From positions 3,405 to 67,404 of IMG/VR virus record IMGVR_UViG_3300047509_000106: a stretch of 64,000 nucleotides of DNA; one strand, given 5' to 3'. Position 1 is the stretch's first letter, and each line of letters opens with the position of its first letter. The notes below the pieces were generated by a model. The model saw nothing but the letters and a program-made list of their open reading frames with translations. It ran no database searches and was not told the DNA's origin. Below, in pieces: positions 17,377 through 30,502 of this stretch. This DNA is from a virus. Both the position numbers and the translations under genes were made by a program.

Positions 17377-17604
17377 ATGACCACTCTTCCCATATCCGAG
17401 CCGGTCGCCTCCATTCCAGCCAATCACGTCATCGTCAACTTCGGTTCCGCCATCACTGGCGACGTGCAGGGCAAAGCGCTGTTGCACCTAGAGCGATACA
17501 TGCGCGAGACGCTGGGCGTGAAGGCGGAATGCTATAAAGCGACTATGGCCGATGACAACAAGCGCCGGCGCGACATGACGCCCGAACAACGTGATCGTCT
17601 ATGA
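17377..17604 (+). CDS. Small protein heading the sugar-enzyme operon
   Basis: TATACT 6 nt before ATG (leaderless-type); coupled to methyltransferase. Confidence 0.55.
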   Translation: MTTLPISEPVASIPANHVIVNFGSAITGDVQGKALLHLERYMRETLGVKAECYKATMADDNKRRRDMTPEQRDRL

Positions 17605-18251
17605 CTGAGACCGAGCGATTACCGTCCGTTGGCGAGTCCGATGTCATCGACACGGCGAATGAGGCGTGGGACGATGGCAAGCAGTCGTGGTACGCCGCGG
17701 CCCTGGACTTCGCCGCCAAGAGTCTCGGACCGGGAGACAATCGCCGCGAGTGTCTCATCATCGGCTCGCCGATGCCGGAAGTGCAACATATCGCCGGCAT
17801 GGGTTGGCGCGTTACCTACGTTGATGTTCGCAAGCCGCCGGCGGACCTGGATCACTTCGTGGAATGCGACGCCACGCGACTCATGTTCCCCGATGAGTCC
17901 GTCGACGCCGTCTCGTCAACATGCGTCCTCTGTCACGCCGGGCTTGGCCGCTACGGCGATCCGGTGAAGCCGAACGGTGATTTGCTCATGTTACGCGAGA
18001 TCGCCCGCGTGTTGAAGCCGGGCGGCTCAGCGGCGATCATGGTCGGGCCGACGATTGCAGGCCACGAGATGAAATCGAGCGTCGTCTACGGCAACGTGCA
18101 TCGCATCTACCGGCCGGAAGATGTGGCGTCGATGCTCCGCGGCGTCCGGTTGGAGTTGCAAGAGTCGGCGATTTTCGAGACGCCGGAACCGCAGATGTAT
18201 GGGCATGTGAAGTATGCTTATATGTCTGTGCTAGTGAGGAAGCCGGGATGA
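17601..18251 (+). CDS. Class I SAM methyltransferase-like (DUF268-like)
   Basis: DATRLMFPDESVD, HAGLGRYGDP, EIARVLKPGG. Confidence 0.8.
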   Translation: MTETERLPSVGESDVIDTANEAWDDGKQSWYAAALDFAAKSLGPGDNRRECLIIGSPMPEVQHIAGMGWRVTYVDVRKPPADLDHFVECDATRLMFPDESVDAVSSTCVLCHAGLGRYGDPVKPNGDLLMLREIARVLKPGGSAAIMVGPTIAGHEMKSSVVYGNVHRIYRPEDVASMLRGVRLELQESAIFETPEPQMYGHVKYAYMSVLVRKPG

Positions 18252-18458
18252 GTGCCGTTGCTAAAGTCGTTGGACTCTTTGGCACATGGCCTTGGCATTT
18301 GCGGCCATCGCTGCGTGAAGTTGGTTTGCAGAGATCAATTGGCTGGCATTTGTTCTTTTTGGGCTGCTGGTATAGATGGCGATGGTTCGCCATGCACACC
18401 CATCGGCTTCGACATCTCGGGCTGAAGATGTGGTGTTCGCATTTGACAAAGGAAAAGC

Positions 18459-19589
18459 ATGAGCGCAGCACTGCCGGAATTCGTTGACAGCCTTGTGCTC
18501 GATGGTACGAAGGTCGGGTGGTATCCCGATAGAATCGCGGCTTGGCACCGTGGCGAGAAGGTTGCGCCGATAACCATTGACTGCGCTATGACAAGGAAGT
18601 GCCAAGCGGCCTGCCACTTTTGCTACGCGCAGCTTCAGTCCAGCGAATCGGACGAGCAGATCACGCAAATCAAGTTCATGGAATTTCTGTCCGACGCGGC
18701 GGAATTGGGGGTCAAAGGTGTCAGCTTCATCTCAGACGGAGAATCAACAGTCGTCCCCTGGTATGCCAATGCCGTCGAACATGCAGCCGGAGTTGGTCTT
18801 GCGGTGGGTGCGGGAAGTAATGGCATTAAACTTACCCGACCAGTCTTGGAAAGAATTCTGCCGCATCTTTCATATCTCCGATTCAATTTCTCGGCAGGCG
18901 AGCGAAAGCGCTACGCCGAAATAATGGGCGTTCCGCAGCACTGCTACGACGACGTGATTCAAAACATCAAAGACGGCATGGAGATCATCAACCGCGATTC
19001 GTTGCCTTGCACGCTCAACATGCAGATGGTGAGCGATCCAAGAGACTCAGATCAGATCATTCCGTTTGCCAATCTCGCCGCACAGTTGCGCCCCGTCTAC
19101 GCAATTGTTAAGCACTGCTCAGATTCGGTCGAAGGATCACTGGGAGTGGATTACGAAAAGTACGACGATCAATTCAAAAACTTGCTTGTTCGCGCCGAAG
19201 AGATCGGTCGTTTTAATGGAGTCCGCATCACAGCGAAATGGAACAAGATAGAGAGCAAACTTGCGAGGAACTATGACCGCTGTTTCGGCGCTCCGTTCAT
19301 CATGCAAATGAGCGGCAATGGTTTGGTCGCACCTTGTGGGATGCTCTTTAACGAGCGTTTCAAAGCATTTCACATTGGAAATATCAGCAAGCAACGATTC
19401 AAGGATATTTGGGCATCGGATCGATACAAGGAAGTGTTCGACTATTTGGCGGGCGACAATTTTGATCCTCGTGTCCGTTGCGGCGCAGGTTGCCTTCAAC
19501 ACAACACCAACGACTATCTATTCAAACTAGTCAACGGCAAGGTGTCTCTGCCAACAACGGCCGCGCCGCCACAACTGCAGTTTATTTGA
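18459..19589 (+). CDS. Radical SAM enzyme with SPASM/twitch-like C-terminus
   Basis: CQAACHFC (CxxxCxxC), DGES, C...G.V.PC...IGNI...F.DIW, CGAGC. Confidence 0.88.
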   Translation: MSAALPEFVDSLVLDGTKVGWYPDRIAAWHRGEKVAPITIDCAMTRKCQAACHFCYAQLQSSESDEQITQIKFMEFLSDAAELGVKGVSFISDGESTVVPWYANAVEHAAGVGLAVGAGSNGIKLTRPVLERILPHLSYLRFNFSAGERKRYAEIMGVPQHCYDDVIQNIKDGMEIINRDSLPCTLNMQMVSDPRDSDQIIPFANLAAQLRPVYAIVKHCSDSVEGSLGVDYEKYDDQFKNLLVRAEEIGRFNGVRITAKWNKIESKLARNYDRCFGAPFIMQMSGNGLVAPCGMLFNERFKAFHIGNISKQRFKDIWASDRYKEVFDYLAGDNFDPRVRCGAGCLQHNTNDYLFKLVNGKVSLPTTAAPPQLQFI

Positions 19590-19592
19590 TCG

Positions 19593-19993: not shown

Positions 19994-21724
19994 ATGACGA
20001 TGCCGTACACGCTCCTCCCCGCGTCTGGGGCCGATCAGGTCAGCGAATGGATCAGGCTTGGCTCGGAAGCCTATGCACTCAATAACCTCAAATCGGCGCA
20101 AAAATACTACAACCGCGCCACGCGACTCGACCCGTCCCACGCCATCGCGATCAATAATCTCGGCATCGTCTTAGCTGCGTCCGGCAATGTGCCGGAAGCG
20201 CTGTTGACCATAGAGCGGGCTGCGCTATTCGATGGCGTCGAGCCGATCATCGCGGCGAATTGGGCGCTCGTCAATTTCGAGGCGGACCGGATCGAAGAGG
20301 CGCGGGCAGCGGCGGAGCACGCAATCAAGTTGGCAGGTGATGCGCCGTCTGACCCGGAAGCGAATGAGACAAAGACGGCCGGCTACGTGCGCTCGCGACT
20401 CGCGTTTGCCGTCATCGCGTCGGCATATGGACAGCCGGGCGATGCGATCCCGGCCTATCGTCAAATGCTCGCCGTAGAGCCGAAGAATCAGGCGGCTGGC
20501 CCGAACTGTTGCTTCAATCAGACTCTCGTTGACATCGCGCCGGCCGAATTGCTTGCTCAGCGCAAAGTCTGGTACGAGTCGAACCGCTGGAAAGGTCCGC
20601 TCTGGCCGCACAAGAACGACAAGACGCCGGGCCGGACATTGAAAGTCGGCTACATCGGCGGCGACTTCAAGAGCCACAGTGCGGCGATGATCTATGCGCA
20701 AGTGCTGCTCAACCACGACAAACAGCAAGTATCGCCGTACCTGTATTCGACGCTGCCCACCGACGCCGAAAAAGACGACATGACGCAGATGTTGCGCGAC
20801 TGCGGGCAATGGCGTGACGTGTTCGGCAAGTCGGATGAGGAAATCGAGGATCAAATCAGCAAGGACGAGATCGACATTCTCGTTGACCTCGCGGCGCATA
20901 CCAATGGCGGCAAGCTCGCCGTGTTCACGCGCAAGCCCGCGCCGATTCAGATTACAGCGTGGGGGTTCGCGCACGGCACCGGCCTGCCCGAGATGGATTA
21001 CTTCTTCGCTGATCCGATCGCGGTGCCAGTCGAGGAGCGAACGCCGGATAACTACAGCGAGAAGATTTACGACCTGCCGTGCATCGTCACCTATCGGCCA
21101 CCCGACGAGTACGCGATTCCGCCATCGTCACCGGCACCATGCCAGAAAAACGACTACTTCACGTTCGGCGCGTTCAGCCGGTTCGAGAAGTTGTCCAACG
21201 AGTATCTGGCCTGCATTCGCGAGATTCTTCTGCGCGTTCCCGACTCGCGACTCTACTTGAAAGACGCCGCCTATCGCCGGCCGTATGCGATTCGACGCAT
21301 TATGAAGGCGCTGGACGGAATCGACCGCGGCCGGTTGAAGTTTGGCCTGGCGACCTCGCACCCAGAGCACATTCTGGAATATCAGAAGCTCGACTTGCTG
21401 CTCGACCCGTGGCCGCATGGCGCGGGCAATGTGACTCTTGAGACGCTGTACGCCGGCGTGCCGCTGATTACGCGCTACGGCAGGCAACCGAGCGGCCGAA
21501 CGGCTAGTAGCGTGCTAACCGTCATGGGCCGGACGGACTGGATTGCCCGATCGGATGCCGAGTACGTCGCGAAGGCGGTCGAATGGGCAGGCCGGCGCGA
21601 CGAGTTGGCGAAGGCACGGGTCACGTTGCGGGAAGAGTTGGTTGGGTCGCCCGTCATCAAAGGGTACGCTGGCGAAGTTGAGAAGGCGTATCGGGCGATG
21701 TGGAAGGAGTGGTGTGCGAAATGA
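19994..21724 (+). CDS. TPR + GT41 (OGT/SPINDLY-like) protein glycosyltransferase 1
   Basis: N-terminal TPRs; LKVGYIGGDFKSHS, DILVDLAAHT, KPAPIQITAWG, GTGLPEMDYF, LDPWP, GVPLIT. Confidence 0.9.
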   Translation: MTMPYTLLPASGADQVSEWIRLGSEAYALNNLKSAQKYYNRATRLDPSHAIAINNLGIVLAASGNVPEALLTIERAALFDGVEPIIAANWALVNFEADRIEEARAAAEHAIKLAGDAPSDPEANETKTAGYVRSRLAFAVIASAYGQPGDAIPAYRQMLAVEPKNQAAGPNCCFNQTLVDIAPAELLAQRKVWYESNRWKGPLWPHKNDKTPGRTLKVGYIGGDFKSHSAAMIYAQVLLNHDKQQVSPYLYSTLPTDAEKDDMTQMLRDCGQWRDVFGKSDEEIEDQISKDEIDILVDLAAHTNGGKLAVFTRKPAPIQITAWGFAHGTGLPEMDYFFADPIAVPVEERTPDNYSEKIYDLPCIVTYRPPDEYAIPPSSPAPCQKNDYFTFGAFSRFEKLSNEYLACIREILLRVPDSRLYLKDAAYRRPYAIRRIMKALDGIDRGRLKFGLATSHPEHILEYQKLDLLLDPWPHGAGNVTLETLYAGVPLITRYGRQPSGRTASSVLTVMGRTDWIARSDAEYVAKAVEWAGRRDELAKARVTLREELVGSPVIKGYAGEVEKAYRAMWKEWCAK

Positions 21725-22077: not shown

Positions 22078-22569
22078 ATGCCGACCTGCCTCTACATCCG
22101 CGGCATTCCAGGGACGGGCAAGCGGACCGTCGCCGATATTCTCGAACGCGATCTACGCTGGCCGGTGCTGTGGGTCCATCACTTCGACGCGGTGTACAAG
22201 GCGATTGGCGAGTACAAGTGTCCCGCGTTGACGGATCGATTGATGGAGGACGTTGCCAAGTACATGTCACGAACAAAGCGTGATTTCATCATCGTTCGCC
22301 CCAGTCGCGACGGGGTTTCCATTCAGCACGTCCAGGATGCGCTTACCAACTATCGTTTCATCCCCATCCGCCTCACCGCCAGCTACAAGACGCTCTGCAC
22401 GCGCGTCACCCGCCGCTGGCACGAATCCGAGTTCCGCATCACCACGAAGGAAGCGCTAGACGAATATCTTGCTACCCGCCCCGAATCCGTGTTTCCATCG
22501 GAGCACGTAATCGACACGGACCATCTCACGCCCGAACAAGTGGCAGGGCGGATCAAGGAATTGCTGTGA
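22078..22569 (+). CDS. P-loop small-molecule kinase (NMP/sugar kinase-like)
   Basis: IRGIPGTGKRT Walker A; IDTDHLTPEQVA.RI C-terminus. Confidence 0.75.
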   Translation: MPTCLYIRGIPGTGKRTVADILERDLRWPVLWVHHFDAVYKAIGEYKCPALTDRLMEDVAKYMSRTKRDFIIVRPSRDGVSIQHVQDALTNYRFIPIRLTASYKTLCTRVTRRWHESEFRITTKEALDEYLATRPESVFPSEHVIDTDHLTPEQVAGRIKELL

Positions 22570-23021
22570 GCAAGATTCACACGCTCGATACGCTCGCCGA
22601 GGCGGTTGCGGAACACCGACGCGAAGGCGCGGTAGTCGTCATGGCTCATGGAACTTTTGATCTCCTCCACGTCGGCCACACCTCCCATCTCGAATCGGCC
22701 AAACGGCTTGGCAACGTCCTAATCGTCACCGTCACCGCCGACGCCTTTGTCAACAAGGGGCAGGGCCGGCCACGATTCCATCAGCAACTTCGCGCCAAGA
22801 TGATCGCCGCCCTACAGTGCGTCGATTATGTGGCCATTAACCACACCCAGACGGCCGCAGAGGCGATTGGACTGCTCAAGCCGCACATTTTCGTCAAGGG
22901 CGAGGAATACCGCGGCATTGAGGCGGAGAAAGACGCGCTGAGGCAATACGGCGGCGAGATGGAGTACGTGAGCGGGGAAGTGGTATTCAGCTCGACTGAG
23001 TTGCTGGGCGGAGTCAAATAG
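22566..23021 (+). CDS. Cytidylyl/adenylyltransferase (HldE/RfaE domain II-like)
   Basis: HGTFDLLHVGH (HxGH), VTAD..VNKG.GRP, VDYV, KG.EY, SST. Confidence 0.88.
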   Translation: MSKIHTLDTLAEAVAEHRREGAVVVMAHGTFDLLHVGHTSHLESAKRLGNVLIVTVTADAFVNKGQGRPRFHQQLRAKMIAALQCVDYVAINHTQTAAEAIGLLKPHIFVKGEEYRGIEAEKDALRQYGGEMEYVSGEVVFSSTELLGGVK

Positions 23022-23042: not shown

Positions 23043-23363
23043 ATGGCTACTGCTTTATACAGAGTCGCACGCCCTCCGACTGCAAACGCGACAGCAATGG
23101 GGCAGGAATTACTAGCTGCCATTGAACAGCTAAGCAACGGGTTTGCTTGGTATTTGAGATTGCGGGCGGCGATTATTCAGGAACAGGACGATGTTACGGG
23201 AACGGACACGGCGTTCGTGACCCCGGCCAAGCAGTTTGGGTTTGTGGATGCCGCTGGCGCTTTAAGCAGTGCGGTAGCACACGCCGCGTTCACCGAATTG
23301 GATGCATTCAACACTACTTGCGCTTCAGCCTTAACTCAACTGTGCGCGAGACTCAAGCAATAA
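23043..23363 (+). CDS. Hypothetical protein
   Basis: GGAG upstream; 106 aa. Confidence 0.55.
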   Translation: MATALYRVARPPTANATAMGQELLAAIEQLSNGFAWYLRLRAAIIQEQDDVTGTDTAFVTPAKQFGFVDAAGALSSAVAHAAFTELDAFNTTCASALTQLCARLKQ

Positions 23364-23386: not shown

Positions 23387-24598
23387 ATGGCGTTCACGAT
23401 TTCATCGTCGGTCGGTACGGCGCAGGCGGCTCCGACCGGCCGCTCGACGCAAGGGCATCTCGTCTACGCTGTCAATCAAGGTGCATATTGGACTTTTTTC
23501 CTTAGCTCGACAAATGCGCTTTCGGCGCTCTATTCCACTAATAGCGGAGGCGCGTGGAATACGCCTACAGGCTCGCCGTTCACGTTAGCTAACGCGCACA
23601 ACTCGGAAGGGAGGAACTTCGGTTTTGCCTATGCAAACCTGTCGTCTACCGACATTTTGCACATGGCGTCGTCCTACGTTGTGGCGGCAAATGACAAGGT
23701 ATATCACACTCGCTTCACACTCGGCACAACTTTAAGCAATACGAACGCGGAGGCCCAATACGATGTGACCGGGGCCACTGGAAACGAGTTGTGTTCGGGC
23801 GCTGTTTGCGCCTTAGACTCCAACGGTAAACCGATTGATGCGAGCAATTTCCAGACTTGCGGTAGCGGCTCACAAGGCAACGGCAACATATCGCGGGCCA
23901 CAAATAATGATGCCGGGACGAGCTGGACGGCTGGCTACCCGAATGGAACCAACGTAGTCAACGGCGCGAGTGTAAACAAATCAAATTTCGTTTGTTCACT
24001 TGGATCAGGAAACGTTTTGTACGTCGCTGACGGTCAGGGTGACCCAACGACTTTCACGGATATTCAGTTTTCAAAATGGGTCAGTTCATGGTCGGTCACA
24101 ACGACTGCTTTAGCTGGAACGGTCACGGCAACCAATGGGAATAATTGGGGCGCATGCGCCGTCACAACGTCCGACGTTCATCTTGTTGTACTGTCCAATA
24201 ATTCCAACGCCTTCGTCCATCGCCGTTTCAACGGGACGAGTTGGTCGAATAGCAGCGGAGCGCCAGGGGCACTGACACTGAATACTTCGCCGTCGGGCAT
24301 CGCATTGGTTTCAGATAACACGAACCTTTATGCGGCGGCAATCGATTCGTCAAAGAACATCAAGGTCAACACCTGGACTTCGGCAGGCGGCTGGGCCGGC
24401 TGGACGACTCTTGAAACGGCAAGAACAAATACGCCGAGCTACATCACCGGCGTTTACAATCCGACCTCCAACGAAATCATGTGGGCGTGGACAGAGTTGA
24501 ACGGAACGCAGCACGATATCATCGGCAGCGTACAGACATTGACTGCTCCCACCGTGAACATCTGCCACTTGATAACTACTGCTGGCATGGCGTTTTAA
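23387..24598 (+). CDS. Ser/Thr/Asn/Gly-rich putative virion beta-propeller protein
   Basis: BNR-like YSTNSGGAW / NDAGTSW repeats; start could be 23366. Confidence 0.6.
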   Translation: MAFTISSSVGTAQAAPTGRSTQGHLVYAVNQGAYWTFFLSSTNALSALYSTNSGGAWNTPTGSPFTLANAHNSEGRNFGFAYANLSSTDILHMASSYVVAANDKVYHTRFTLGTTLSNTNAEAQYDVTGATGNELCSGAVCALDSNGKPIDASNFQTCGSGSQGNGNISRATNNDAGTSWTAGYPNGTNVVNGASVNKSNFVCSLGSGNVLYVADGQGDPTTFTDIQFSKWVSSWSVTTTALAGTVTATNGNNWGACAVTTSDVHLVVLSNNSNAFVHRRFNGTSWSNSSGAPGALTLNTSPSGIALVSDNTNLYAAAIDSSKNIKVNTWTSAGGWAGWTTLETARTNTPSYITGVYNPTSNEIMWAWTELNGTQHDIIGSVQTLTAPTVNICHLITTAGMAF

Positions 24599-24610: not shown

Positions 24611-26926
24611 ATGGCCGCGACCGTCGTACCAGTCCAGACAACCGCGACCGGCTCGGGTGCTCCCGTAGCCGTCGATTCGGTTGGCGGCGCGGACTATCAG
24701 CAGGTCAAGCTGGTCGGCGGCGTCATCGGCGACACGACGCCGATCGGAGTGACGAGCGGAGTTCCAGGCGGCACGACTGCGGGCATGATCGTCGCCGTGG
24801 TCCCCGGTGTCTCGGTCAGCGCTCAAGTCTCAGGAACAGTCACGGCGAACGTCAGCGGCGCAGTCAGCGTCTCGGCGATGCCGGCAGTGAATATCTCCGG
24901 CATCACGCCAGTCACGACGGCCGCATCCGTGTCTGTGAGCGGTGTTCCGGTATGGCTAAACCCCACACAAGCGGTCAACGTCGGCAGCATCGTCAGCACG
25001 GTTTTGGTTAATGTCGTGGCGGGCGGGGCGGGTGGTGGGTCGGTAACAACTGCGCCGCCGTCCATTTCTCAATCGGGTCAAGCTGTTTGGATCGTCGGCG
25101 GGCAGGGCACGACAGCGAATCCGGTGGTAGTCACTGGCACTGTCGCGGCAGGCGCTGGCACAACTGTCGTCAGCATCCAGGGCATCGTCCCGGTTACGAC
25201 AGCGGCGAGCGTGTCCGTATCCGGCCTGCCAGTGTGGCTAAATCCTACCCAACAGGTTGTCGTCAGCGGGCTCGTCGGTCACAGCATCACGGGCAGCGTC
25301 AATATCGTTTCAACGGCCATCGTCAGTCTTGCAACGGGCGGAAGTGTGACGCTTGTGGGGACCGTCGGCGCTAGCATCATCGCGGCCGTGTCTCTTAGCG
25401 GCATCACGCCCGTTGCGACCCAAACCTCAGTGTCGATCAGTGGCGTGCCTGTGTGGTTTGCACCTGGAGCTTTGGTCGCTGTCAGCGGGACTGGAGTTGT
25501 GACGCTGGCGACGGGTGGGACACTGGCGACATTGCTAGGCACAGTCGCGGTGAATGTCGTGGCCGGAGGCGCTGCACCCGGAACTACGGCAACCACGCAA
25601 ACGAACGTTACGGCTCAGGTGGTGTGGTTGGCACCGACTCAGACGGTCAACGTGACTGTGTTGAGTACGGCCGTGGTGACGCTCGCGACGGGTGGTTCTG
25701 TTACTCTGGTTGGCTCGGTTGGCATTTCTCATGCGGCCATTGCAAGTGTTGCCGCCACGAGCGGCCCACCGCTGTTCAGTGCTTTTGGCGTTCCGGTTTG
25801 GATTGTGGGCGGCCAGAGTGTGACCGCAGCAGCGACACCTGTTCTTGTTACGGTCATAGCCGGTGCCCCAATAACAATCTCAGGAATCGTACCTGTCACG
25901 ACCGCCGCGAGCGTGAGCGTGACTGGACTTCCGGTGTGGCTCAATCCGACGCAAGCTGTCAATGTGGGCAGCATCGTCAGTACCGTACTCGTCAACGTAG
26001 TGGCTGGCGGAGCCGGTGGAGTCGTGAGTATTAGCGGCGTAGTTCCAGTGACAACCGCCGCGTCAGTCTCGGTTACGGGCTTGCCTGTCTGGCTCAACCC
26101 GACGCAAACGGTGATTGTCGGCAGCCAATTGGGAACGGCGGTTGTCACGCTGGCTACAGGCGGATCGGTAACACTGGTTGGTACGGTCGGCGCTTCGGTG
26201 ATTGCCGCGATTTCAATAAGCGGCATCGTTCCAGTTACAACTCAGGCCAGCGTCAGCGTCACCGGCCTGCCCGTCTGGCTAAACCCGTCGCAAAGCATCG
26301 TGATGGGGGCCATGTCCATCTCGGCCATCGTGCCCGTGACCACCGCCGCGAGCGTCAGTGTTACAGGGCTCCCTGTTTGGTTGAATCCTACACAAACCGT
26401 GGTCGTAAGCGGCGCGGTTGTCGCAGTGACGACACAATCGAGCGTCACTGGCGCGGCGATATGGCTCGCACCGACGCAAACCGTCGTCATGCAACCGAGC
26501 GCTGGCATTGCCTTCCTCATGCGCGTGACTTCGACCGCTGTAGCCGTCAGCGCCAATGCCTATCTCGCTACGGTCAACACGGGTGGAACTCTTGCTGTGG
26601 CCGGAACGAGCCTTTACGTCGTGCCGGCTGGTAAGAACTTGCGGATTGCCATGATTCAAGCTGCCTGGAATAGTTCGGCGGTGACGGGCGGATCGATTAT
26701 GTTCGTGCCGGTAGCCGCCGGGAATGCCGCATCCCTTGTTTCCGGGAGCATTCCGACGCAAGGCCAGCCGTTGCTCCTGTTGGGAATTGTTTCGGCTGGC
26801 GTGACGGCTGGGCTTATCATGGGCGCACAAGCAGACATAGGCGCTGGCTCGACGATAGCGCCGTTCATCATCGCCTCGACTGCCGGCCAGCTCGTATCAT
26901 TGGTCATATCCGGTTATCTGTTCTAG
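24611..26926 (+). CDS. Ser/Thr/Val-rich repeat fibre-like protein (putative glycoprotein)
   Basis: 6 near-exact PVTT(A/Q)ASVSV(S/T)G(L/V)PVWLNP(T/S)Q repeats plus degenerate copies; almost no charged residues. Confidence 0.8.
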   Translation: MAATVVPVQTTATGSGAPVAVDSVGGADYQQVKLVGGVIGDTTPIGVTSGVPGGTTAGMIVAVVPGVSVSAQVSGTVTANVSGAVSVSAMPAVNISGITPVTTAASVSVSGVPVWLNPTQAVNVGSIVSTVLVNVVAGGAGGGSVTTAPPSISQSGQAVWIVGGQGTTANPVVVTGTVAAGAGTTVVSIQGIVPVTTAASVSVSGLPVWLNPTQQVVVSGLVGHSITGSVNIVSTAIVSLATGGSVTLVGTVGASIIAAVSLSGITPVATQTSVSISGVPVWFAPGALVAVSGTGVVTLATGGTLATLLGTVAVNVVAGGAAPGTTATTQTNVTAQVVWLAPTQTVNVTVLSTAVVTLATGGSVTLVGSVGISHAAIASVAATSGPPLFSAFGVPVWIVGGQSVTAAATPVLVTVIAGAPITISGIVPVTTAASVSVTGLPVWLNPTQAVNVGSIVSTVLVNVVAGGAGGVVSISGVVPVTTAASVSVTGLPVWLNPTQTVIVGSQLGTAVVTLATGGSVTLVGTVGASVIAAISISGIVPVTTQASVSVTGLPVWLNPSQSIVMGAMSISAIVPVTTAASVSVTGLPVWLNPTQTVVVSGAVVAVTTQSSVTGAAIWLAPTQTVVMQPSAGIAFLMRVTSTAVAVSANAYLATVNTGGTLAVAGTSLYVVPAGKNLRIAMIQAAWNSSAVTGGSIMFVPVAAGNAASLVSGSIPTQGQPLLLLGIVSAGVTAGLIMGAQADIGAGSTIAPFIIASTAGQLVSLVISGYLF

Positions 26927-26935: not shown

Positions 26936-28723
26936 TTGCCAGTCATCCCCTACATGATCGTCCCTCAACAGGGTAGCGATCAAGCCGATGAATGGTTGCG
27001 CCTCGGCATGGCCGCGCAGCAAGCGAACAACCTGCCATTGGCTCAGCAAAACTACAACCAGGCGCTGCGACTCGATCCACGGCACGCACTGGCGATGAAC
27101 AATCTTGCCATTGTGTTCGCCCAATCGAATTTGCTGAACGAAGCGCTCTTGACCATCGAACGCGCGGCGATGTGCGACGGTGTGCACGGCGTCATTCAGA
27201 TGAATTGGGCGCTGATGGCAATGGACGCCGAGCGACCAGATGAAGCGGTCGATCACGCAAAGCGTGCTTGTGAAATTGCGCCCGATGATCCGAATGCACA
27301 ACTTGCCCTGGCGATGATCGGACCGGCAGCGGGACTGGCGGATGAGACAGTCGAGCTCTATCGCAAGATTCTCGACAAGGAGCCGGCCAATCCTTCGGCC
27401 GGCCCGAATATCTGCTTCGTGCAGACTCTCACCGATGCCACGCCGGCCGAGATGTTGGCGCAGCGAAAGAAATGGTACGAGGCGAACCGATTCAAGGGCA
27501 CAATCGAGCCGTATCGCAATGACCGCAATCTAGACCGACCGCTCCGCATCGGTTACGTCGGTGGCGACTTCAAATCACATTCCGCCTCTTTCATTTTCGG
27601 CCGCGTCGTGCTGCACCATTCGTCGGCGTGCGAGGTCTACCTGTACTCGTCGCTGCCGGTCGATCCAAATGCGGACGTGATGACGAAACGGTTCAGCGAA
27701 GCGGCAGGTCCGCGCTGGCGCGACATCGCCACGATGAACGACGAGGATGCCGCGGCACTCATTCGCAAGGATCGCATCGATATTTTGGTTGATCTCGCGG
27801 CGCACACCAACGGCGGACGACTGGCACTATTCACGCGCAAGCCCGCGCCAGTGCAAGTCACCGCCTGGGGGTTCGCTCATGGCACGGGCTTACCGGAAAT
27901 CGACTACTTCCTCGCCGACAAGGTAAGCGTTCCCGAAGACGAGCGGCAGCACTACGCCGAAAAGATCATCGACCTGCCGTGTCTGCTCACGATGGAAGAG
28001 CCGGCGCATTACAACCTCAAGGCGACTTCCCATCCACCTCTGCGCAAGAACGGCTATTTCACTTTCGGCGTCTACGCTCGGTACGAAAAGGTCAGCGACA
28101 AGTGCCTCGCGACGTTCGCGGAGATTCTGCGCCGCGTGCCGGACAGTAAGATCGAATTCAAGGACAATGCTTTTCGACGGCCGTATTCGTGCCGGCGTGT
28201 CATGGAGATAATGCAGTACAAAACGATTTGCAAAAGCTGCCGGGGGATCGGCTGCGATAATTGCGAGCGTGGCGTCAAAGGCGTAATGCAATGCAATAGC
28301 GAATTCCCGATCAACATCGCACCGGAGCGGTTTCTATTTTCGACGGCCACGAATCATCCGGATCACATGCTCGCCTATCAAATGGCTGACCTCATACTTG
28401 ATCCATTCCCTCATTGCGGCGGGATTGTGTCACTTGAGGCCATCTATATGGGATTGCCGATTCTGACCCTCTACGGCAACAAGCCAGCCGGTCGGAACAC
28501 GTCGAGCGTACTCACGGCGATGGGCCGTACCGAGTGGATCGCTCGCACACCAGAGGAGTACATTGAGAAGGCTGTGGACCTCGCCGAGAACGGCGTTCGC
28601 GAACTGGCGAAGGCACGTCAGTCGTTGCGGCAAGAACTATTGGAATCTCCGGTCGTGAAGGGGTATGTTGAGAAGGTCGAAGAGGCGTATCGCCAAGCAT
28701 GGCGGGAGTGGTGCGAGAAGTGA
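26936..28723 (+). CDS. TPR + GT41 (OGT/SPINDLY-like) protein glycosyltransferase 2
   Basis: Paralogue of 19994..21724 with the same motifs; TTG start after GGAGA; Cys-rich insertion. Confidence 0.9.
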   Translation: MPVIPYMIVPQQGSDQADEWLRLGMAAQQANNLPLAQQNYNQALRLDPRHALAMNNLAIVFAQSNLLNEALLTIERAAMCDGVHGVIQMNWALMAMDAERPDEAVDHAKRACEIAPDDPNAQLALAMIGPAAGLADETVELYRKILDKEPANPSAGPNICFVQTLTDATPAEMLAQRKKWYEANRFKGTIEPYRNDRNLDRPLRIGYVGGDFKSHSASFIFGRVVLHHSSACEVYLYSSLPVDPNADVMTKRFSEAAGPRWRDIATMNDEDAAALIRKDRIDILVDLAAHTNGGRLALFTRKPAPVQVTAWGFAHGTGLPEIDYFLADKVSVPEDERQHYAEKIIDLPCLLTMEEPAHYNLKATSHPPLRKNGYFTFGVYARYEKVSDKCLATFAEILRRVPDSKIEFKDNAFRRPYSCRRVMEIMQYKTICKSCRGIGCDNCERGVKGVMQCNSEFPINIAPERFLFSTATNHPDHMLAYQMADLILDPFPHCGGIVSLEAIYMGLPILTLYGNKPAGRNTSSVLTAMGRTEWIARTPEEYIEKAVDLAENGVRELAKARQSLRQELLESPVVKGYVEKVEEAYRQAWREWCEK

Positions 28724-29187
28724 TTCAACTCGAAGCGCGTTCACTGCCGTCTACCACGCTCGCCAACGGCATCCTGACCGTCAAACCGTCCGTATCGCTT
28801 CATCACAACATCTATCAAGCCGTCATAGAACAAGTGGGCAGCCAGTTGAAAGTGTCGGAGTTCGCGCTAGGCAATCATCAAGTTCCCATCGGTATCACGT
28901 TCGTCGCGTCTGCTGACGTGAAATTACTCGTTATGCACGGCAACATTCACGGATACAACATCCTGACCAATGATACGGGCAAGGCGTGCTGGCTCGTGGG
29001 AGGCAACTTGACCGACGCACTAACGGGCGGCAGTGGATACAACACCATCGATGGTCGTGGCGGCGAGGATCACGTCTTTCTGACGAATGGCGGCGTGTCG
29101 GTGCTGACTGGCGATAGAGACGTGGTTGTAGTCGGTGCGAAGGATATATGGAGCGGCGGGGCGCATGAGAAGGTGTATCCAGTATGA
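28720..29187 (+). CDS. Protein with RTX-like Gly-rich nonapeptides
   Basis: DALTGGSGYNTIDGRGGEDHVF. Confidence 0.55.
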   Translation: MIQLEARSLPSTTLANGILTVKPSVSLHHNIYQAVIEQVGSQLKVSEFALGNHQVPIGITFVASADVKLLVMHGNIHGYNILTNDTGKACWLVGGNLTDALTGGSGYNTIDGRGGEDHVFLTNGGVSVLTGDRDVVVVGAKDIWSGGAHEKVYPV

Positions 29188-29816
29188 CGAATCACACGCC
29201 CGAATCGCTCATCGCCTTCAGCAACCGCGTCCGCGATGCCTTTCTCGCCAAGCAAATTCGCTGCCCGGTCCACTTTTGCTCCGACACGCAGGCCGGTCCG
29301 CTCGTTGAAATCTTCAAGCACATCGCGCCAACCGACTGGGTATTCTGTACGTGGAGGAATTCTTTTCATGCCTTGCTTAAGGGCATCCCCAAAGACGAAC
29401 TGTTTCAGATGATCGTTGACGGCCGCTCCATGTTCATCATGTCGAAAGAGCATCGCTTCTTTTGCTCATCAATAGTCGGCGGGATATTGCCGATTGCGCT
29501 AGGTGTGGCGGCGGGGATCAAAAGGAATCGGGAAAACTACTATGGTGATTGGCCAGCGCCGGACAGGGAATGGGGACTGGTCCATGTGTTCGTGGGCGAC
29601 ATGTGCTCCACCACGGGCCTGTTTGCCGAATTCAGCCGATATGCAGAAGGTCACGATCTGCCCGTTAGAATTGTCATTGAGAACAACGATTTGAGTACGA
29701 ACGCACGGACGCGAGACGTATGGGGGCATGGACAATGGCAACCGGATCGGCATCACTACTACACGTACAAGCGGACACACCCGCACGTCGGTCTACTCGA
29801 AAAAGTCAGCTTCTAA
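29184..29816 (+). CDS. TPP-dependent enzyme, short E1-alpha-like subunit
   Basis: PVH, TWRNSFHALLKG, SSIVGG..PIALG.A, VGDM...ENN TPP motif variant. Confidence 0.82.
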   Translation: MTNHTPESLIAFSNRVRDAFLAKQIRCPVHFCSDTQAGPLVEIFKHIAPTDWVFCTWRNSFHALLKGIPKDELFQMIVDGRSMFIMSKEHRFFCSSIVGGILPIALGVAAGIKRNRENYYGDWPAPDREWGLVHVFVGDMCSTTGLFAEFSRYAEGHDLPVRIVIENNDLSTNARTRDVWGHGQWQPDRHHYYTYKRTHPHVGLLEKVSF

Positions 29817-29998
29817 TGGAGAAACCATGTCAGACGCAGTGGCAGTCGGCATCGTCGTTTGTGCTTTGTTTTTGCTTTCTACAATAGCTCGATTTTCAAT
29901 CGAGTACTTGAAAATGAAAGCGGCATACGAAATGGCCGCTAGGAATGGCGGGAGGTATCCAAATCCACCGCCACCGCGTTATTGGTACGATTGACTTT

Positions 29999-30502
29999 AT
30001 GAGACAACTCAATCAGGCGATGCTCATGCTCGCCGCCCAGCCGCGCAGCCTCTTCATCGGGCAAGGCGTAGCTGCCGATGGTGTTGCGACCTACGCCGAC
30101 TTTGAAGGCGTGCCGATGGAACAGCGGATCGAATTTCCAATCGCGGAAGAGTTGAACGTCGGCTACGCGATCGGCCTAGCGATGATGGGATACTTGCCCG
30201 TGGTTTGCATACCGCGAGTAGATTTTCTCTTACGAGCTGCCGACGCCATCATCAATCACTTGGATAAGATCGAGCAAATGAGCGTCGGCCAGTGGAACCC
30301 AAAAGTTATCATCCGAACGCGGGTGGGAAGCAAGACGCCGCTTGATGCCGGACCGCAGCACACGCAACGGCACACCGAGGCGTTCCGGCATATGCTGACC
30401 AATGTAAACGTGTGGGAGATACTTCGACCGTCTGAAATCTTGCCGACCTACGAATGCGTCACGCTCGGCACAAAATCTTCGATCATCGTGGAGGTGCTAT
30501 GA
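29999..30502 (+). CDS. TPP-dependent enzyme, E1-beta/transketolase pyrimidine-binding subunit (no C-terminal domain)
   Basis: FIGQGV, EFPIAEE...G.AIGLAM.G..PV, DFLL.A.D.IINH, GPQH. Confidence 0.82.
   Translation: MRQLNQAMLMLAAQPRSLFIGQGVAADGVATYADFEGVPMEQRIEFPIAEELNVGYAIGLAMMGYLPVVCIPRVDFLLRAADAIINHLDKIEQMSVGQWNPKVIIRTRVGSKTPLDAGPQHTQRHTEAFRHMLTNVNVWEILRPSEILPTYECVTLGTKSSIIVEVL

What the first reader, a model, noticed from the sequence alone, without database searches (positions are those of the whole stretch)
17377..30502. Phage-encoded protein glycosylation system: two GT41 (OGT/SPINDLY-like) enzymes, a sugar pathway and candidate substrates inside the virion operon
Seen: ~13 kb between capsid and head-tail genes encodes two paralogous TPR-GT41 enzymes (19994, 26936), a methyltransferase, radical SAM enzyme, P-loop kinase, HxGH nucleotidyltransferase and split TPP enzyme. 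The two GTs bracket two Ser/Thr-rich structural-looking proteins (23387, 24611). Established: GT41 enzymes (OGT, SPINDLY, HMW1C) glycosylate proteins; some mycobacteriophages glycosylate virion proteins with their own GTs; bacterial serine-rich repeat adhesins are encoded beside dedicated GTs. Inference: this phage makes an unusual nucleotide-sugar and coats a fibre and/or the capsid with it, for host-surface mimicry, shielding, solubility or adsorption. I know of no described phage with a GT41 pair plus donor pathway plus substrate, but could not search.
Basis: partly seen in the sequence, partly recalled or inferred. Interest (0 to 1): 0.92.

Follow-up and report, generated by a model that had tools for sequence, protein, structure and literature searches.

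The report
Phage fibre glycosylation cassette with GT41
An uncultured soil phage and at least 22 related viral contigs carry a conserved gene set (SPINDLY/OGT-like protein glycosyltransferases, a pathway for an unusual heptose-type activated sugar, and a nearly charge-free Ser/Thr-rich fibre with a TNF/C1q-like tip) that most likely builds a sugar-coated virion fibre, something not described for phages and so far untested at the bench.

Summary
The window is a complete 67.4-kb phage with terminal repeats. Between its major capsid gene and its head-tail adaptor lie two TPR-GT41 paralogues, a methyltransferase, a radical SAM/SPASM enzyme, a P-loop kinase, an HxGH nucleotidyltransferase and a split TPP enzyme.

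- The 771-aa repeat protein is a fibre. It has a conserved N-terminus, a variable uncharged shaft and a TNF/C1q-like C-terminal knob predicted to trimerise. It lies upstream of the GT41 gene in every related locus that is not cut short.
- The other "substrate" is a 7-bladed beta-propeller resembling lectins and glycan lyases.
- The donor pathway looks heptose-based. Relatives add GmhA-like and PfkB-like genes. The TPP enzyme is E1-like, and one relative replaces it with an AHAS-type TPP enzyme beside the radical SAM gene. This points to a two-carbon-branched sugar.

The GT41s form a phage-only clade. They keep the SPINDLY catalytic Lys and His but differ at four positions aligning with SPINDLY's GDP- and fucose-contacting residues. 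GT41b, the fibre and the fibre knob had no tblastn match in 50,697 GenBank phages, and I found no paper describing the system. No chemistry has been done. The scan reported the same cassette earlier on another genome (e1-5947703).

The parts
15010..16464 (+). Major capsid protein (context; upstream boundary of the cassette)
   Evidence: PF05065 8.2e-28. Best GenBank phage match is 29% identity.
16500..16910 (+). 136-aa Thr/Ser-rich protein directly after the capsid gene; possible head accessory protein and possible extra acceptor
   Evidence: phrog_5707, unknown function, 6.3e-13. Present twice upstream of the cassette in L025. Composition.
17377..17604 (+). 75-aa conserved small protein that travels with the radical SAM gene; function unknown
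   Evidence: tblastn matches just upstream of the rSAM gene in L005, L007, L008, L011, L025 and L028. No Pfam or NCBIfam match.
17601..18251 (+). SAM-dependent methyltransferase (accessory tailoring step)
   Evidence: PF08241 5.2e-10. Homologues in L023 and L025. A methyltransferase follows the rSAM gene in G003.
18459..19589 (+). Radical SAM enzyme with a SPASM/twitch-like C-terminal Cys domain; universal partner of the GT41/fibre pair
   Evidence: PF04055 + PF13186. CxxxCxxC plus five further invariant Cys. Present in all 14 related contigs of 15 kb or more. Lies between the two TPP halves in a 735-kb phage.
19994..21724 (+). TPR-GT41 glycosyltransferase a
   Evidence: PF13844 1.6e-33 plus TPR. 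50% identical to GT41b. Carries all invariant residues of alignment A1. Member of the phage clade.
21700..22077 (+). 125-aa ORF, unknown
   Evidence: No family match.
22078..22569 (+). P-loop (AAA_18-like) small kinase; sits where relatives have a PfkB sugar kinase
   Evidence: PF13238 5.2e-5, below cut-off. 62% identical homologue in L024.
22566..23021 (+). HxGH nucleotidyltransferase, closest to heptose-1-phosphate adenylyltransferase (RfaE domain II / HldC)
   Evidence: TIGR02199 1.2e-32, 112.7 bits against an equivalog cut-off of 181.5. phrog_7878 4e-21. PDB 5x9q 3e-18. Fused to PfkB in G003 and G005.
23043..23363 (+). 106-aa ORF, unknown
   Evidence: No family match.
23408..24598 (+). 7-bladed beta-propeller, lectin/glycan-lyase/sialidase-like; probable carbohydrate-binding or carbohydrate-cleaving virion protein
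   Evidence: AF2 pLDDT 88.6, pTM 0.89. VIA Z 28.4 to BP39L lectin, 28.1 to rhamnose-glucuronate lyase, 27.4 to PLL lectin. Foldseek 1e-10 to 7esl. 38 homologues, all unnamed.
24611..26926 (+). REP: 771-aa fibre protein (conserved N-terminus, uncharged Ser/Thr/Val-rich repeat shaft, TNF/C1q-like C-terminal knob); proposed acceptor
   Evidence: Composition: 182 Ser+Thr and 8 Asp+Lys+Arg (no Glu) of 771 residues. Family of 17 members next to GT41. C-terminal domain model pLDDT 79.9. Z 11.9 to 4-1BBL and 10.7-11.0 to cyanophage tail-fibre domains. Trimer score 0.53 against 0.00.
26936..28723 (+). TPR-GT41 glycosyltransferase b, with a Cys-rich insertion at about residues 427-460
   Evidence: PF13844 1.9e-35. 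SPINDLY 7y4i 1.3e-77. Residue mapping. Insertion visible.
28699..29187 (+). 162-aa ORF, unknown
   Evidence: Only a weak calcium-repeat hit. No Pfam match.
29184..29816 (+). TPP enzyme, PP-domain half (E1-alpha-like)
   Evidence: PF00676 2.1e-8. Family profile hits human PDH E1-alpha at 1.2e-13, against 3.3e-4 or worse for transketolases. GDM...N TPP motif invariant.
29827..29994 (+). Small hydrophobic ORF (about 55 aa) inserted between the TPP halves; absent in relatives, may not be part of the system
   Evidence: Translation. The TPP halves abut in L005 and L011.
29945..30502 (+). TPP enzyme, Pyr-domain half (E1-beta-like)
   Evidence: PF02779 4.5e-10. phrog_34187 positions 239-400.
31341..32354 (+). 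Head-tail adaptor (context; downstream boundary)
   Evidence: phrog_442 2.4e-11.

Best explanation
This is a late-expressed phage module that makes a glycosylated virion fibre.

Step 1, the donor (inferred). A nucleotide-activated heptose is made or captured. The HldC-like nucleotidyltransferase and a kinase do this in the window phage. Relatives add a GmhA-like isomerase and a PfkB kinase, and the phosphatase step is left to the host. The sugar is then tailored. The radical SAM/SPASM enzyme is proposed to oxidise or otherwise activate it. The E1-like TPP enzyme then adds a two-carbon unit from a 2-oxoacid, as in branched-sugar pathways. The methyltransferase adds a methyl group.

Step 2, the transfer (inferred from family and gene linkage). 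The cytoplasmic TPR-GT41 enzymes bind the extended, uncharged Ser/Thr-rich shaft of the fibre protein REP through their TPR domains and O-glycosylate many hydroxyls before or during assembly.

Step 3, the product (fold predicted, location inferred). REP trimerises through its TNF/C1q-like C-terminal knob and is mounted on the particle by its conserved N-terminus. The neighbouring propeller protein serves as a glycan-binding or glycan-cutting partner.

Shown here: gene content, conservation of the linkage, the folds, and retention of the GT41 catalytic residues.
Not shown: any sugar, any modified residue, or the position of the fibre on the virion.
For: The enzymes:
- Both GT41s pass the Pfam cut-off several-fold.
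- GT41b aligns with SPINDLY at 1.3e-77 and with bacterial and human OGTs.
- The SPINDLY residues D491, H495, S496, K665 (essential) and H728, taken from passages of PMC9715652, align with D211, H215, S216, K385 and H477. All are invariant in 25 of 25 sequences, including both paralogues.

Linkage to the fibre:
- The profile scan returned 24 loci on 22 viral contigs.
- 16 of the 24 loci, plus the window, have a REP homologue upstream of the GT41 gene. In 5 of those loci and in the window it abuts the GT41 gene.
- The 8 loci without REP are either cut within 4.4 kb upstream of GT41 or hold the second GT41 of a contig whose other GT41 has a REP.

Linkage to the pathway:
- The rSAM gene is in 7 loci, in 5 of 5 further records and in 2 of 5 more, the 3 misses being fragments of 8-9 kb.
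- The nucleotidyltransferase is in 5 of 5 records and the TPP beta half in 4 of 5.

Heptose reading:
- The nucleotidyltransferase's best family is rfaE domain II.
- Relatives carry PfkB (best hit rfaE domain I) and SIS_2 (best hit GmhA), and nucleotidyltransferase-PfkB fusions followed by SIS_2.
- In cyanophages P-TIM68 and S-SM2 the fused TPP homologue sits among genes annotated as carbohydrate kinase, nucleotidyltransferase and phosphoheptose isomerase.

Branching reading:
- The TPP profile is far closer to PDH E1-alpha than to transketolase.
- G005 lacks the split enzyme and has an AHAS-type TPP enzyme next to the rSAM gene.
- A 735-kb phage has the gene order TPPb-rSAM-TPPa.
- E1 alpha/beta-like pairs and a TPP flavoprotein attach two-carbon branches to NDP-ketosugars (passages of PMC4802897).

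Fibre reading:
- The REP family has 24-32% Ser+Thr and 0.5-3.6% charged residues in 17 of 17 members.
- The C-terminal domain is a TNF/C1q-like jelly roll.
- The homotrimer prediction scored 0.53 against a best control of 0.00. That mark was reached by 20 of 30 proteins solved as pairs and 1 of 23 solved as single chains. The runs agree in at least 75% of contacts and pLDDT is 70-72. TNF/C1q trimers are well represented among solved structures, so this pass may partly reflect likeness.
Against: - No chemical evidence exists for any sugar on any protein.
- Four positions that align with SPINDLY's GDP- or fucose-contacting residues differ: N661 to A381, A664 to E384, Y744 to H493, and T747/T748/T749 to G496/I497/V498. 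The T748A mutant of SPINDLY is strongly impaired. Activity therefore cannot be assumed, although strict conservation across the family argues for a working but different pocket.
- In the window phage the GmhA-like and PfkB-like genes are missing. The kinase is a weak AAA_18 match below cut-off.
- The nucleotidyltransferase and all the heptose-family hits in relatives are below the NCBIfam equivalog cut-offs.
- The rSAM enzyme cannot be assigned. Its best PDB and NCBIfam hits are peptide and cofactor maturases at 20-40 bits, and BtrN appears only at E 0.004. SPASM enzymes often act on peptides.
- Whether REP sits on the head or the tail, or is in the virion at all, is not shown.
- A reverse-strand ORF splits the cassette.
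- No late-promoter motif lies at the cassette itself.
Confidence: 0.6

Rival explanations
1. The GT41 enzymes glycosylate something other than REP: other virion proteins (the small Thr-rich protein at 16500, the propeller, the capsid) or host proteins such as flagellin or regulators. On this reading REP is simply a neighbouring structural gene.
For: TPR-GT41 and FlmG-type enzymes have broad or non-adjacent substrates. FlmG is a 596-residue TPR plus GT-B flagellin glycosyltransferase (passage of PMC7591256). In 10 of the 17 REP-containing sources one to four genes separate REP from GT41. The window has two GT41s, which could serve two acceptors.
Against: REP accompanies GT41 in every locus that is not cut short, across lineages whose flanking structural genes differ: capsid-side in the window and L005, terminase-side in L021. 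REP has an extreme acceptor-like composition. Flagellin genes were not next to the nearest bacterial GT41 genes where this could be judged (inconclusive).
Confidence: 0.15
2. The sugar genes are auxiliary metabolic genes that remodel the host envelope during infection (LPS or capsule heptose, for example to block superinfection). The product is not put on the virion.
For: The homologous TPP, kinase, nucleotidyltransferase and isomerase genes of cyanophages P-TIM68 and S-SM2 lie in clusters with ordinary glycosyltransferases and a 'capsular polysaccharide biosynthesis protein'. Functional heptose enzymes with no known role occur in viruses (PMC11461863 passages).
Against: In this phage group the pathway travels with a cytoplasmic protein-type glycosyltransferase (TPR-GT41) and a fibre, inside the structural gene block. 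No membrane-embedded polysaccharide export, polymerase or lipid-carrier genes were seen among the proteins scanned.
Confidence: 0.1
3. The radical SAM/SPASM enzyme, with its small partner protein, modifies the fibre protein itself (cross-links, epimerisation or oxidation of Ser/Thr) rather than a sugar. This can hold together with glycosylation.
For: The SPASM domain is present. The best named relatives are peptide maturases SkfB and PqqE. A conserved small protein lies upstream of the rSAM gene. The rSAM gene is as universal as REP and GT41.
Against: The rSAM gene is physically coupled to the TPP enzyme. It lies between the two TPP halves in a 735-kb phage where none of the other cassette genes used as tblastn queries, including REP and GT41, matched within 12 kb on either side. 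It also sits beside the AHAS-type TPP enzyme in G005. REP proteins have 0-2 Cys. The W-x-N motif that might suit a cyclophane-forming enzyme is repeated only in the window, L005 and L025 and occurs once in three further members, out of 17. It is absent from four other rSAM-linked members: L007, L008, L011 and L018.
Confidence: 0.1
4. The cassette hypermodifies phage DNA with a sugar, as many phage glycosyltransferases do.
For: Phage glycosyltransferases that decorate DNA bases are common (search listing). Another note on this genome reports a possible DpdA-like gene at 776-1650, which I did not test.
Against: GT41 enzymes with TPR domains are protein-directed in every characterised case cited here. 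The genes sit in the structural block and are tied to a fibre gene. No base-modifying enzyme is in the cassette.
Confidence: 0.03

Closest known systems
SPINDLY (Arabidopsis protein O-fucosyltransferase) and OGT (CAZy GT41; PDB 7Y4I, 8DTF, 5DJS, 3PE3, 2JLB)
   Same: N-terminal TPRs plus a GT41 GT-B catalytic domain. Full-length similarity of 1.3e-77. The Asp/His/Ser trio, the essential Lys and the base-stacking His are conserved. Soluble cytoplasmic enzymes that act on Ser/Thr of extended peptides.
   Different: Only about 4-5 TPRs and 560-610 residues. Four positions aligning with SPINDLY's GDP- or fucose-contacting residues are replaced (T748 to I/V, Y744 to H, N661 to A, A664 to E), so the donor is probably neither UDP-GlcNAc nor GDP-fucose. 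Encoded by phages beside a dedicated acceptor and donor pathway. Forms a separate clade with 100/100 support.
FlmG flagellin O-glycosyltransferase of Caulobacter (PMC7591256)
   Same: About 600 residues with an N-terminal TPR substrate-binding domain and a C-terminal GT-B domain. Cytoplasmic glycosylation of a filament subunit with an unusual sugar made by a dedicated pathway (passage).
   Different: The substrate is flagellin and the donor a nonulosonic acid (abstracts listed). Direct homology to the phage enzymes was not tested here. The nearest bacterial relatives are 32-40% identical, and flagellin genes were not clearly adjacent to them.
Mycobacteriophage virion glycosylation (recalled: Freeman et al. 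2023; seen here only as citations and in the abstract of PMC11256854)
   Same: Phage-encoded glycosyltransferases modify virion structural proteins in the cytoplasm.
   Different: From recall, those systems modify capsid and tail-tube subunits. They have no GT41, no dedicated fibre acceptor, and no rSAM/TPP/heptose pathway. GT41b has no tblastn match in 50,697 GenBank phage records.
BclA / F-BclA exosporium and endospore-appendage glycoproteins of the Bacillus cereus group
   Same: Same overall design: N-terminal anchor, long repetitive Thr-rich shaft, and C-terminal TNF/C1q-like trimeric knob. The knob model matches the F-BclA C-terminal domain at Z 9.6 and BclA at Z 8.5-9.0. That BclA is heavily O-glycosylated is recalled.
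   Different: The REP shaft has no collagen G-X-Y repeats. There is no sequence similarity. The glycosyltransferases differ. It is a phage protein, not a spore protein.
AIDA-I/TibA autotransporters and their heptosyltransferases Aah/TibC (BAHT family; PMC4358343, abstract seen)
   Same: Hyper-O-glycosylation of a repetitive beta-rich adhesin with heptose from a nucleotide-heptose donor in the cytoplasm.
   Different: BAHTs are dodecameric enzymes, not TPR-GT41. The acceptor is an autotransporter passenger. Use of heptose by the phage GT41s is only inferred.
Branched-chain sugar pathways with TPP enzymes (Plm8/Plm9, AviB1/AviB2, YerE; PMC4802897 passages)
   Same: E1 alpha/beta-like pairs or an AHAS-like TPP flavoprotein add a two-carbon unit from pyruvate to an NDP-ketosugar. 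The phage group uses either an E1-like split enzyme or, in G005, an AHAS-type enzyme.
   Different: The phage halves are about 200 aa each, much shorter than E1 subunits. They are coupled to a radical SAM enzyme and to heptose-type rather than 6-deoxyhexose genes. The substrate is unknown.
Virus-encoded NDP-heptose biosynthetic enzymes (Tang et al. 2024, as summarised in PMC11461863)
   Same: Viruses encode working isomerase, kinase and nucleotidyltransferase enzymes for NDP-heptose and lack the phosphatase, as this cassette does.
   Different: No role was known for the viral enzymes. Here they are linked to a protein glycosyltransferase and a fibre.

Membership tests
CAZy GT41 / Pfam PF13844 (OGT, SPINDLY) | Match to the family profile above the curated cut-off | tested here: met
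   116.2 and 122.6 bits against a cut-off of 25. Own-genome scan finds both genes.
CAZy GT41 / Pfam PF13844 (OGT, SPINDLY) | N-terminal TPR array joined to the catalytic domain | tested here: met
   TPR_1/2/16 and others in residues about 17-160 of both proteins.
CAZy GT41 / Pfam PF13844 (OGT, SPINDLY) | Essential phosphate-binding Lys (SPINDLY K665) and active-site His (H495) | tested here: met
   K385 and H215 align with them and are invariant in 25 of 25 sequences.
CAZy GT41 / Pfam PF13844 (OGT, SPINDLY) | Thr-rich phosphate-binding loop (SPINDLY T747-T749) and sugar-side Tyr (Y744) | tested here: not met
   Replaced by G496/I497/V498 and H493. This is read as a different donor pocket, not as proof of inactivity.
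CAZy GT41 / Pfam PF13844 (OGT, SPINDLY) | Glycosyl transfer to protein Ser/Thr | not testable with these tools
   Needs an enzyme assay or glycoproteomics.
NDP-heptose pathway (GmhA, HldA/HldE kinase, GmhB, HldC/HldE nucleotidyltransferase) | HldC-type nucleotidyltransferase | tested here: inconclusive
   Best family is TIGR02199 at 112.7 bits, below the equivalog cut-off of 181.5. The next family, g3p cytidylyltransferase, scores 47.8 bits. HxGH is present.
NDP-heptose pathway (GmhA, HldA/HldE kinase, GmhB, HldC/HldE nucleotidyltransferase) | GmhA-type isomerase and PfkB-type heptose kinase | tested here: not met
   Absent from the window cassette. Present in relatives L011, L018, L028, G003 and G005, but below the equivalog cut-offs. 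The window has a P-loop kinase instead.
Two-carbon branching TPP enzymes of sugar pathways (E1 alpha/beta-like) | TPP-binding motif and E1-type PP and Pyr domains | tested here: met
   GDM...N is invariant. E1_dh and Transket_pyr matches. PDH E1-alpha at 1.2e-13 against 3.3e-4 or worse for transketolases.
Two-carbon branching TPP enzymes of sugar pathways (E1 alpha/beta-like) | Acts on an NDP-ketosugar with a 2-oxoacid donor | not testable with these tools
   Inferred from gene neighbours only.
TNF/C1q-like trimeric fibre knobs | Ten-strand jelly-roll fold at the C-terminus | tested here: met
   Model pLDDT 79.9. Z 11.9 (rmsd 2.9, 122 aligned) to 4-1BBL, 11.0 and 10.7 to cyanophage A4 and A-1(L) tail-fibre domains, 9.4 to C1q. 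71 BFVD hits at E<=1e-3, led by collagen/C1q proteins.
TNF/C1q-like trimeric fibre knobs | Homotrimer | tested here: met
   Prediction only: score 0.53 against a best control of 0.00. The mark was reached by 20 of 30 solved pairs and 1 of 23 single chains. May reflect likeness to solved trimers.
Radical SAM/SPASM maturases | CxxxCxxC cluster plus a C-terminal auxiliary-cluster Cys domain | tested here: met
   C48/C52/C55 and C220, C275, C293, C341, C345 are invariant in 10 of 10 sequences. PF04055 + PF13186. Substrate class is not assignable.

The most novel reading that the evidence does not exclude
This phage clade makes a mucin-like, almost charge-free virion fibre whose many Ser/Thr residues carry a two-carbon-branched, methylated heptose. 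The sugar is built by a previously unknown radical-SAM plus E1-like TPP route, and it is transferred by the first GT41 enzymes to use a nucleotide-heptose donor. That would make these enzymes protein O-heptosyltransferases of the OGT/SPINDLY family. It would also give virus-encoded NDP-heptose enzymes their first assigned function.
Probability: 0.25. Interest if true: 0.9.

Novelty: new variant of a known kind. Interest (0 to 1): 0.8.

Why it matters
Glycosylation of phage particles is known from only a few systems and is usually ignored in phage biology, in phage therapy and in structural work.

This module would be a self-contained, portable protein-glycosylation system with donor pathway, transferase and acceptor together. 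That is useful as a model for how GT41 enzymes choose donors and acceptors, and as a possible glyco-engineering tool.

It would also:
- give a function to the NDP-heptose enzymes recently found in viruses;
- point to a new sugar-tailoring chemistry (radical SAM plus TPP);
- suggest that glycan-coated fibres are a widespread adsorption or shielding device among uncultured soil and freshwater phages.

Every step is directly testable by heterologous co-expression.

Tried and rejected
- Near-identity and single-protein searches found nothing. Megablast of 14000-31000 against GenBank phages gave no match. Single-protein pattern scans of viral contigs gave none. tblastn of GT41b, REP and the REP knob against GenBank phages gave none. 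The low-complexity filter may have hidden REP shaft matches, which is why I repeated the search with the knob alone.
- A word-based search with the REP C-terminus returned one weak hit. The profile search replaced it.
- PHROGs had no family for the GT41s, REP, the propeller, the rSAM enzyme, the methyltransferase or the kinase.
- The idea that the repeated V-W-L-N-P-T-Q unit marks three-residue cyclophane formation by the rSAM enzyme is not supported. W-x-N is repeated only in the window, L005 and L025, occurs once in three further members of the 17, and is absent from four rSAM-linked members.
- An apparent signal peptide on the propeller is an artefact of the upstream ATG. Its homologues start at the second Met.
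- Reading the TPP enzyme as a transketolase that supplies sedoheptulose-7-phosphate is rejected in favour of an E1-like carboligase.
- The sigma-70 promoter and terminator scan of 13500-32500 gave counts no different from shuffles.
- The CCGCCCC-N10 motif is enriched in the window (14 against 3.08 expected). On the + strand it lies before the portal, capsid and adaptor genes. Within the cassette there is only one one-mismatch copy, inside the kinase gene.
- Flagellin genes near the closest bacterial GT41 genes: no clear adjacency, and contig numbering is uncertain. Inconclusive.
- The protein-atlas look-up of the propeller gave only sub-threshold leads. The fold then settled the question.
- Sequencing runs: one DNA holder, which may be the source, and no RNA holder listed.
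- The genome-contig scan found only 8 loci at 32-40% identity, so no prophage copy or host was identified.
- Supplementary files of papers were not consulted. The residue tables of PMC9715652 and the virus list of Tang et al. could refine the residue mapping and the heptose-enzyme comparison.
- Paper searches found no description of a phage GT41 system. This covers only the held library.

Full report
**What the window is.** The window is bases 3405-67404 of a 67,404-bp IMG/VR virus record with direct terminal repeats and a CheckV completeness of 100. Genes run almost entirely on the + strand. The structural block reads as follows:
- large terminase, 7549-9150;
- portal, 9548-11083;
- protease-containing protein, 12055-13902;
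- major capsid protein, 15010-16464;
- head-tail adaptor, 31341-32354.

No long tape-measure-sized ORF follows the adaptor, which would fit a short-tailed phage. That last point is my inference only. The capsid protein is at most 29% identical to that of any GenBank phage, so the phage is distant from cultured ones.

**The observation.** The genes abut or overlap, with one exception. A gap of about 400 nt at 19589-19994 holds a 121-aa ORF on the opposite strand.

**The glycosyltransferases.**
- GT41b matches Arabidopsis SPINDLY at 1.3e-77, a Thermobaculum OGT-like protein at 2.9e-52, and human and Xanthomonas OGTs.
- GT41a and GT41b are 50% identical along their whole length.
- I read passages of the SPINDLY structure paper (PMC9715652) and laid its residues on the alignment. 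D491, H495 and S496 correspond to D211, H215 and S216. The essential K665 corresponds to K385. The base-stacking H728 corresponds to H477.
- All five are invariant in an alignment of 25 family members that includes both paralogues.
- Four positions aligning with SPINDLY's GDP- and fucose-contacting residues differ consistently. N661 is A381, A664 is an invariant E384, Y744 is an invariant H493, and the T747-T749 loop is G496-I497-V498.
- I read this as a conserved, working enzyme with a different donor. It is not proof of activity.
- GT41b also carries a Cys-rich insertion of about 35 residues (CxxC-x4-CxxC) that GT41a lacks. Most relatives are 553-585 aa, shorter than its 595 aa.

**Distribution.**
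- The family is large in metagenomes. There were 1,983 hits at E<=1e-10 among 8,000 scored candidates, and the best 120 were 55-71% identical and about 560 aa.
- A profile scan of IMG/VR returned 24 loci on 22 contigs.
- GenBank's 50,697 phage records gave no tblastn match.
- A scan of one genome for each of 185,579 species gave only 8 loci at 32-40% identity, all Alphaproteobacteria.
- In a maximum-likelihood tree of 26 rows, 19 phage GT41s, including both window paralogues, form a clade with 100/100 support. This clade is separate from the bacterial rows and from a second viral type (L026-L028). Inside the clade the two paralogues are not resolved as sisters.
- Two other contigs also carry two GT41 genes.

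**The fibre (REP).** The 771-aa protein has 182 Ser+Thr, 153 Val and only 8 Asp+Lys+Arg, with no Glu.

Local tblastn and clustering of all ORFs in the 24 loci show a REP homologue upstream of the GT41 gene in 16 loci plus the window. In L005, L009, L011, L013, L014 and the window it abuts the GT41 gene. The eight loci without one fall into two groups: those cut within 4.4 kb upstream of GT41 (L016, L017, L022, L024, L026, L027), and those holding the second GT41 of a contig whose first GT41 has a REP (L015, L028).

The 17 REP proteins share these features:
- lengths from 365 to 1,855 aa;
- 24-32% Ser+Thr, 0.5-3.6% charged residues and 0-2 Cys;
- a conserved N-terminus and several kinds of shaft repeat in variable numbers;
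- a conserved C-terminal domain of about 135 aa ending in GYLF.

A profile of that C-terminal domain finds 185 cluster representatives in 1.84 billion proteins at E<=1e-3, and 109 at E<=1e-10. In nearly every listed hit the match lies at the C-terminal end of the protein.

The AlphaFold model (55-sequence alignment, pLDDT 79.9, pTM 0.72) is a TNF/C1q-type jelly roll:
- VIA-align gives Z 11.9 (rmsd 2.9 over 122 residues) to 4-1BB ligand, Z 11.0 and 10.7 to tail-fibre domains of cyanophages A4 and A-1(L), 9.6 to the F-BclA C-terminal domain, 9.4 to C1q and 8.5-9.0 to BclA.
- Foldseek against PDB is weaker but consistent.
- Against viral models the top hits are collagen-repeat/C1q proteins of giant viruses and phages, with 71 hits at E<=1e-3.

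Three copies are predicted to bind. The score was 0.53 against a best control of 0.00. That mark was reached by 20 of 30 proteins solved as pairs and 1 of 23 solved as single chains. The runs agree in at least 75% of contacts, and pLDDT is 70-72. Because TNF/C1q trimers are well known, the pass may reflect likeness. REP therefore has the standard layout of a trimeric fibre: anchor, shaft and knob.

**The second "substrate".** The protein at 23408-24598 has 38 unnamed homologues. It folds with high confidence (pLDDT 88.6, pTM 0.89) into a 7-bladed propeller. The best matches are bacterial lectins BP39L (Z 28.4) and PLL (27.4), a rhamnose-glucuronate lyase (28.1) and GH145 hydrolases. Sialidases appear in Foldseek. 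WD40 propellers score only a few Z units lower, so the carbohydrate reading rests on rank and context.

In related phages the slot between REP and GT41 holds a right-handed beta-helix protein, a pectate-lyase-like protein or a concanavalin-like lectin domain. All of these are carbohydrate-binding or carbohydrate-cleaving folds typical of phage receptor-binding proteins. This gene is better described as part of the adsorption apparatus than as a mucin-like acceptor, although it could also be glycosylated.

**The donor pathway: conservation.**
- The rSAM gene is in 7 loci, in 5 of 5 further whole records and in 2 of 5 more. The 3 misses are fragments of 8-9 kb. All 14 contigs of 15 kb or more therefore have it.
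- The nucleotidyltransferase is in 5 of 5 records.
- The TPP beta half is in 4 of 5 records.

**The donor pathway: the heptose signal.**
- The window nucleotidyltransferase's best family is RfaE domain II, at 112.7 bits. This is below the equivalog cut-off of 181.5 but far above glycerol-3-phosphate cytidylyltransferase at 47.8 bits.
- L011, L018 and L028 add a PfkB kinase whose best hit is RfaE domain I and a SIS_2 protein whose best hit is GmhA.
- G003 and G005 have nucleotidyltransferase-PfkB fusions followed by SIS_2.
- The fused TPP homologues of cyanophages P-TIM68 (39% identity) and S-SM2 (34%) lie among genes their depositors annotated as carbohydrate kinase, nucleotide-sugar epimerase, nucleotidyltransferase and phosphoheptose isomerase.
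- No phosphatase is present. A commentary on Tang et al. reports the same for virus-encoded NDP-heptose enzymes (PMC11461863 passages).

**The donor pathway: the tailoring signal.**
- The TPP alpha profile hits human pyruvate dehydrogenase E1-alpha at 1.2e-13, against 3.3e-4 or worse for transketolases.
- Its GDM...N cofactor motif is invariant.
- In G005 the split enzyme is missing, and an AHAS-type TPP enzyme sits next to the rSAM gene.
- In a 735-kb uncultured phage the rSAM gene lies between the TPPb and TPPa genes.
- E1 alpha/beta-like pairs (Plm8/9, AviB1/2) and the TPP flavoprotein YerE attach two-carbon branches from pyruvate to NDP-ketosugars (PMC4802897 passages).

My reading is that the rSAM enzyme prepares the sugar, possibly by oxidising it as BtrN-type enzymes do. 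That step is inference. BtrN appears only at E 0.004, in the auxiliary-cluster region. The TPP enzyme then adds a C2 unit and the methyltransferase finishes the sugar. The window phage lacks the GmhA-like and PfkB-like genes and has a P-loop kinase instead. It would depend more on host heptose intermediates, or its sugar may differ.

**Mechanism and rivals.** The best-supported model is cytoplasmic O-glycosylation of the REP shaft by the TPR-GT41 enzymes, using a phage-tailored nucleotide-heptose, to give a glycan-coated trimeric fibre with a TNF-like tip. I put the core claim (GT41 acts on REP) at about 0.6 and the donor details at about 0.35. The four rivals are set out, with evidence for and against each, under Rival explanations. 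The peptide-maturase rival is weakened by the tight coupling of the rSAM gene to the TPP genes even where none of the other cassette genes used as queries, including REP and GT41, matched nearby. Whether REP is a head fibre or a tail fibre cannot be decided. It lies between capsid and adaptor genes in the window and in L010, L012 and L014 (adaptors identified), but just upstream of terminase and portal genes in L021.

**Comparison with what is known.** The enzymes are members of GT41 by profile, architecture and catalytic core, but they fail the Thr-loop feature. The system works like FlmG-type flagellin glycosylation, BclA-type glycoprotein fibres and AIDA/TibC hyper-heptosylation without belonging to any of those families. 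Phage virion glycosylation itself is known from mycobacteriophages. I saw this only as citations and one abstract, and the details I give are recalled. I found no paper on a phage GT41 system in five searches of the held library. An earlier report of this scan (e1-5947703) described the same kind of cassette on another genome and reached a similar reading. My analysis was made independently on this window and agrees with it.

**Verdict.** This is a new variant of a known kind, phage virion glycosylation, with an unprecedented enzyme family, a dedicated acceptor fibre and a probably novel sugar pathway. Interest is high, but all functional statements await biochemistry.

Noticed in passing
window 19593-19958 (- strand): A 121-aa charged, helix-looking ORF on the opposite strand. 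It fills the only gap in the cassette, in a stretch of lower G+C (0.52 for 18001-20000). A promoter-like and terminator-like site lies at 19793-19829. It may be an inserted moron or a regulator.
   Followed up: partly
window about 28214-28315 (GT41b residues about 427-460): A Cys-rich insertion (CxxC-x4-CxxC plus one more Cys) that is absent from GT41a. Judging by length, it is also absent from most relatives. Possibly a zinc knuckle.
   Followed up: partly
window 29827-29994: A small hydrophobic ORF of about 55 aa wedged between the two TPP half-genes. In L005 and L011 the halves abut, and in cyanophages they are fused.
   Followed up: partly
window 6279, 9519, 14938, 31313, 32748, 37806, 37937, 39963 (+ strand): A CCGCCCC-N10-TAnnnT-like motif occurs 14 times with up to one mismatch, against 3.08 expected. 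It mostly lies just upstream of structural genes. Within the cassette there is only one one-mismatch copy, inside the kinase gene. This suggests the cassette is read through from the capsid promoter or uses another signal.
   Followed up: partly
L039 (LR756501.1, 735-kb uncultured phage) 10376-12567: The gene order TPPb - radical SAM - TPPa occurs in a huge phage. None of the other cassette genes used as tblastn queries (GT41, REP, nucleotidyltransferase and others) matched within 12 kb on either side. The rSAM/TPP trio looks like a mobile unit in its own right.
   Followed up: partly
L040 (G005) 1975-3696 (- strand): An AHAS/POX-type TPP enzyme of 573 aa (TPP_enzyme_N/M/C) lies beside the rSAM gene in a 96-kb relative that lacks the split E1-like enzyme. 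This is an apparent non-orthologous replacement. A Glyco_trans_1_2 gene lies on the other side.
   Followed up: partly
L037 and L038 (cyanophages P-TIM68 and S-SM2): Cultured T4-like cyanophages carry the fused TPP homologue inside a sugar gene island (kinase, nucleotidyltransferases, phosphoheptose isomerase, epimerases, Zn-dependent dehydrogenase, glycosyltransferases). These could serve as an experimental entry point to the pathway.
   Followed up: no
P0038: One 62%-identical GT41 homologue is named by its source as coming from a Pyrinomonadaceae (Acidobacteriota) metagenome-assembled genome. This is a weak hint to the host range of this phage group. It contrasts with another note's guess of a planctomycete host, which I did not test.
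   Followed up: no
window 16500-16910; L025 73-933: A small Thr/Ser-rich protein (phrog_5707, function unknown) lies directly after the capsid gene. It is duplicated in tandem in the relative L025. Possibly a head decoration protein.
   Followed up: no
window 14114-14905: A KTSC-domain protein (PF13619, 27.6 bits) is encoded between the protease and capsid genes. Its role is unknown.
   Followed up: no
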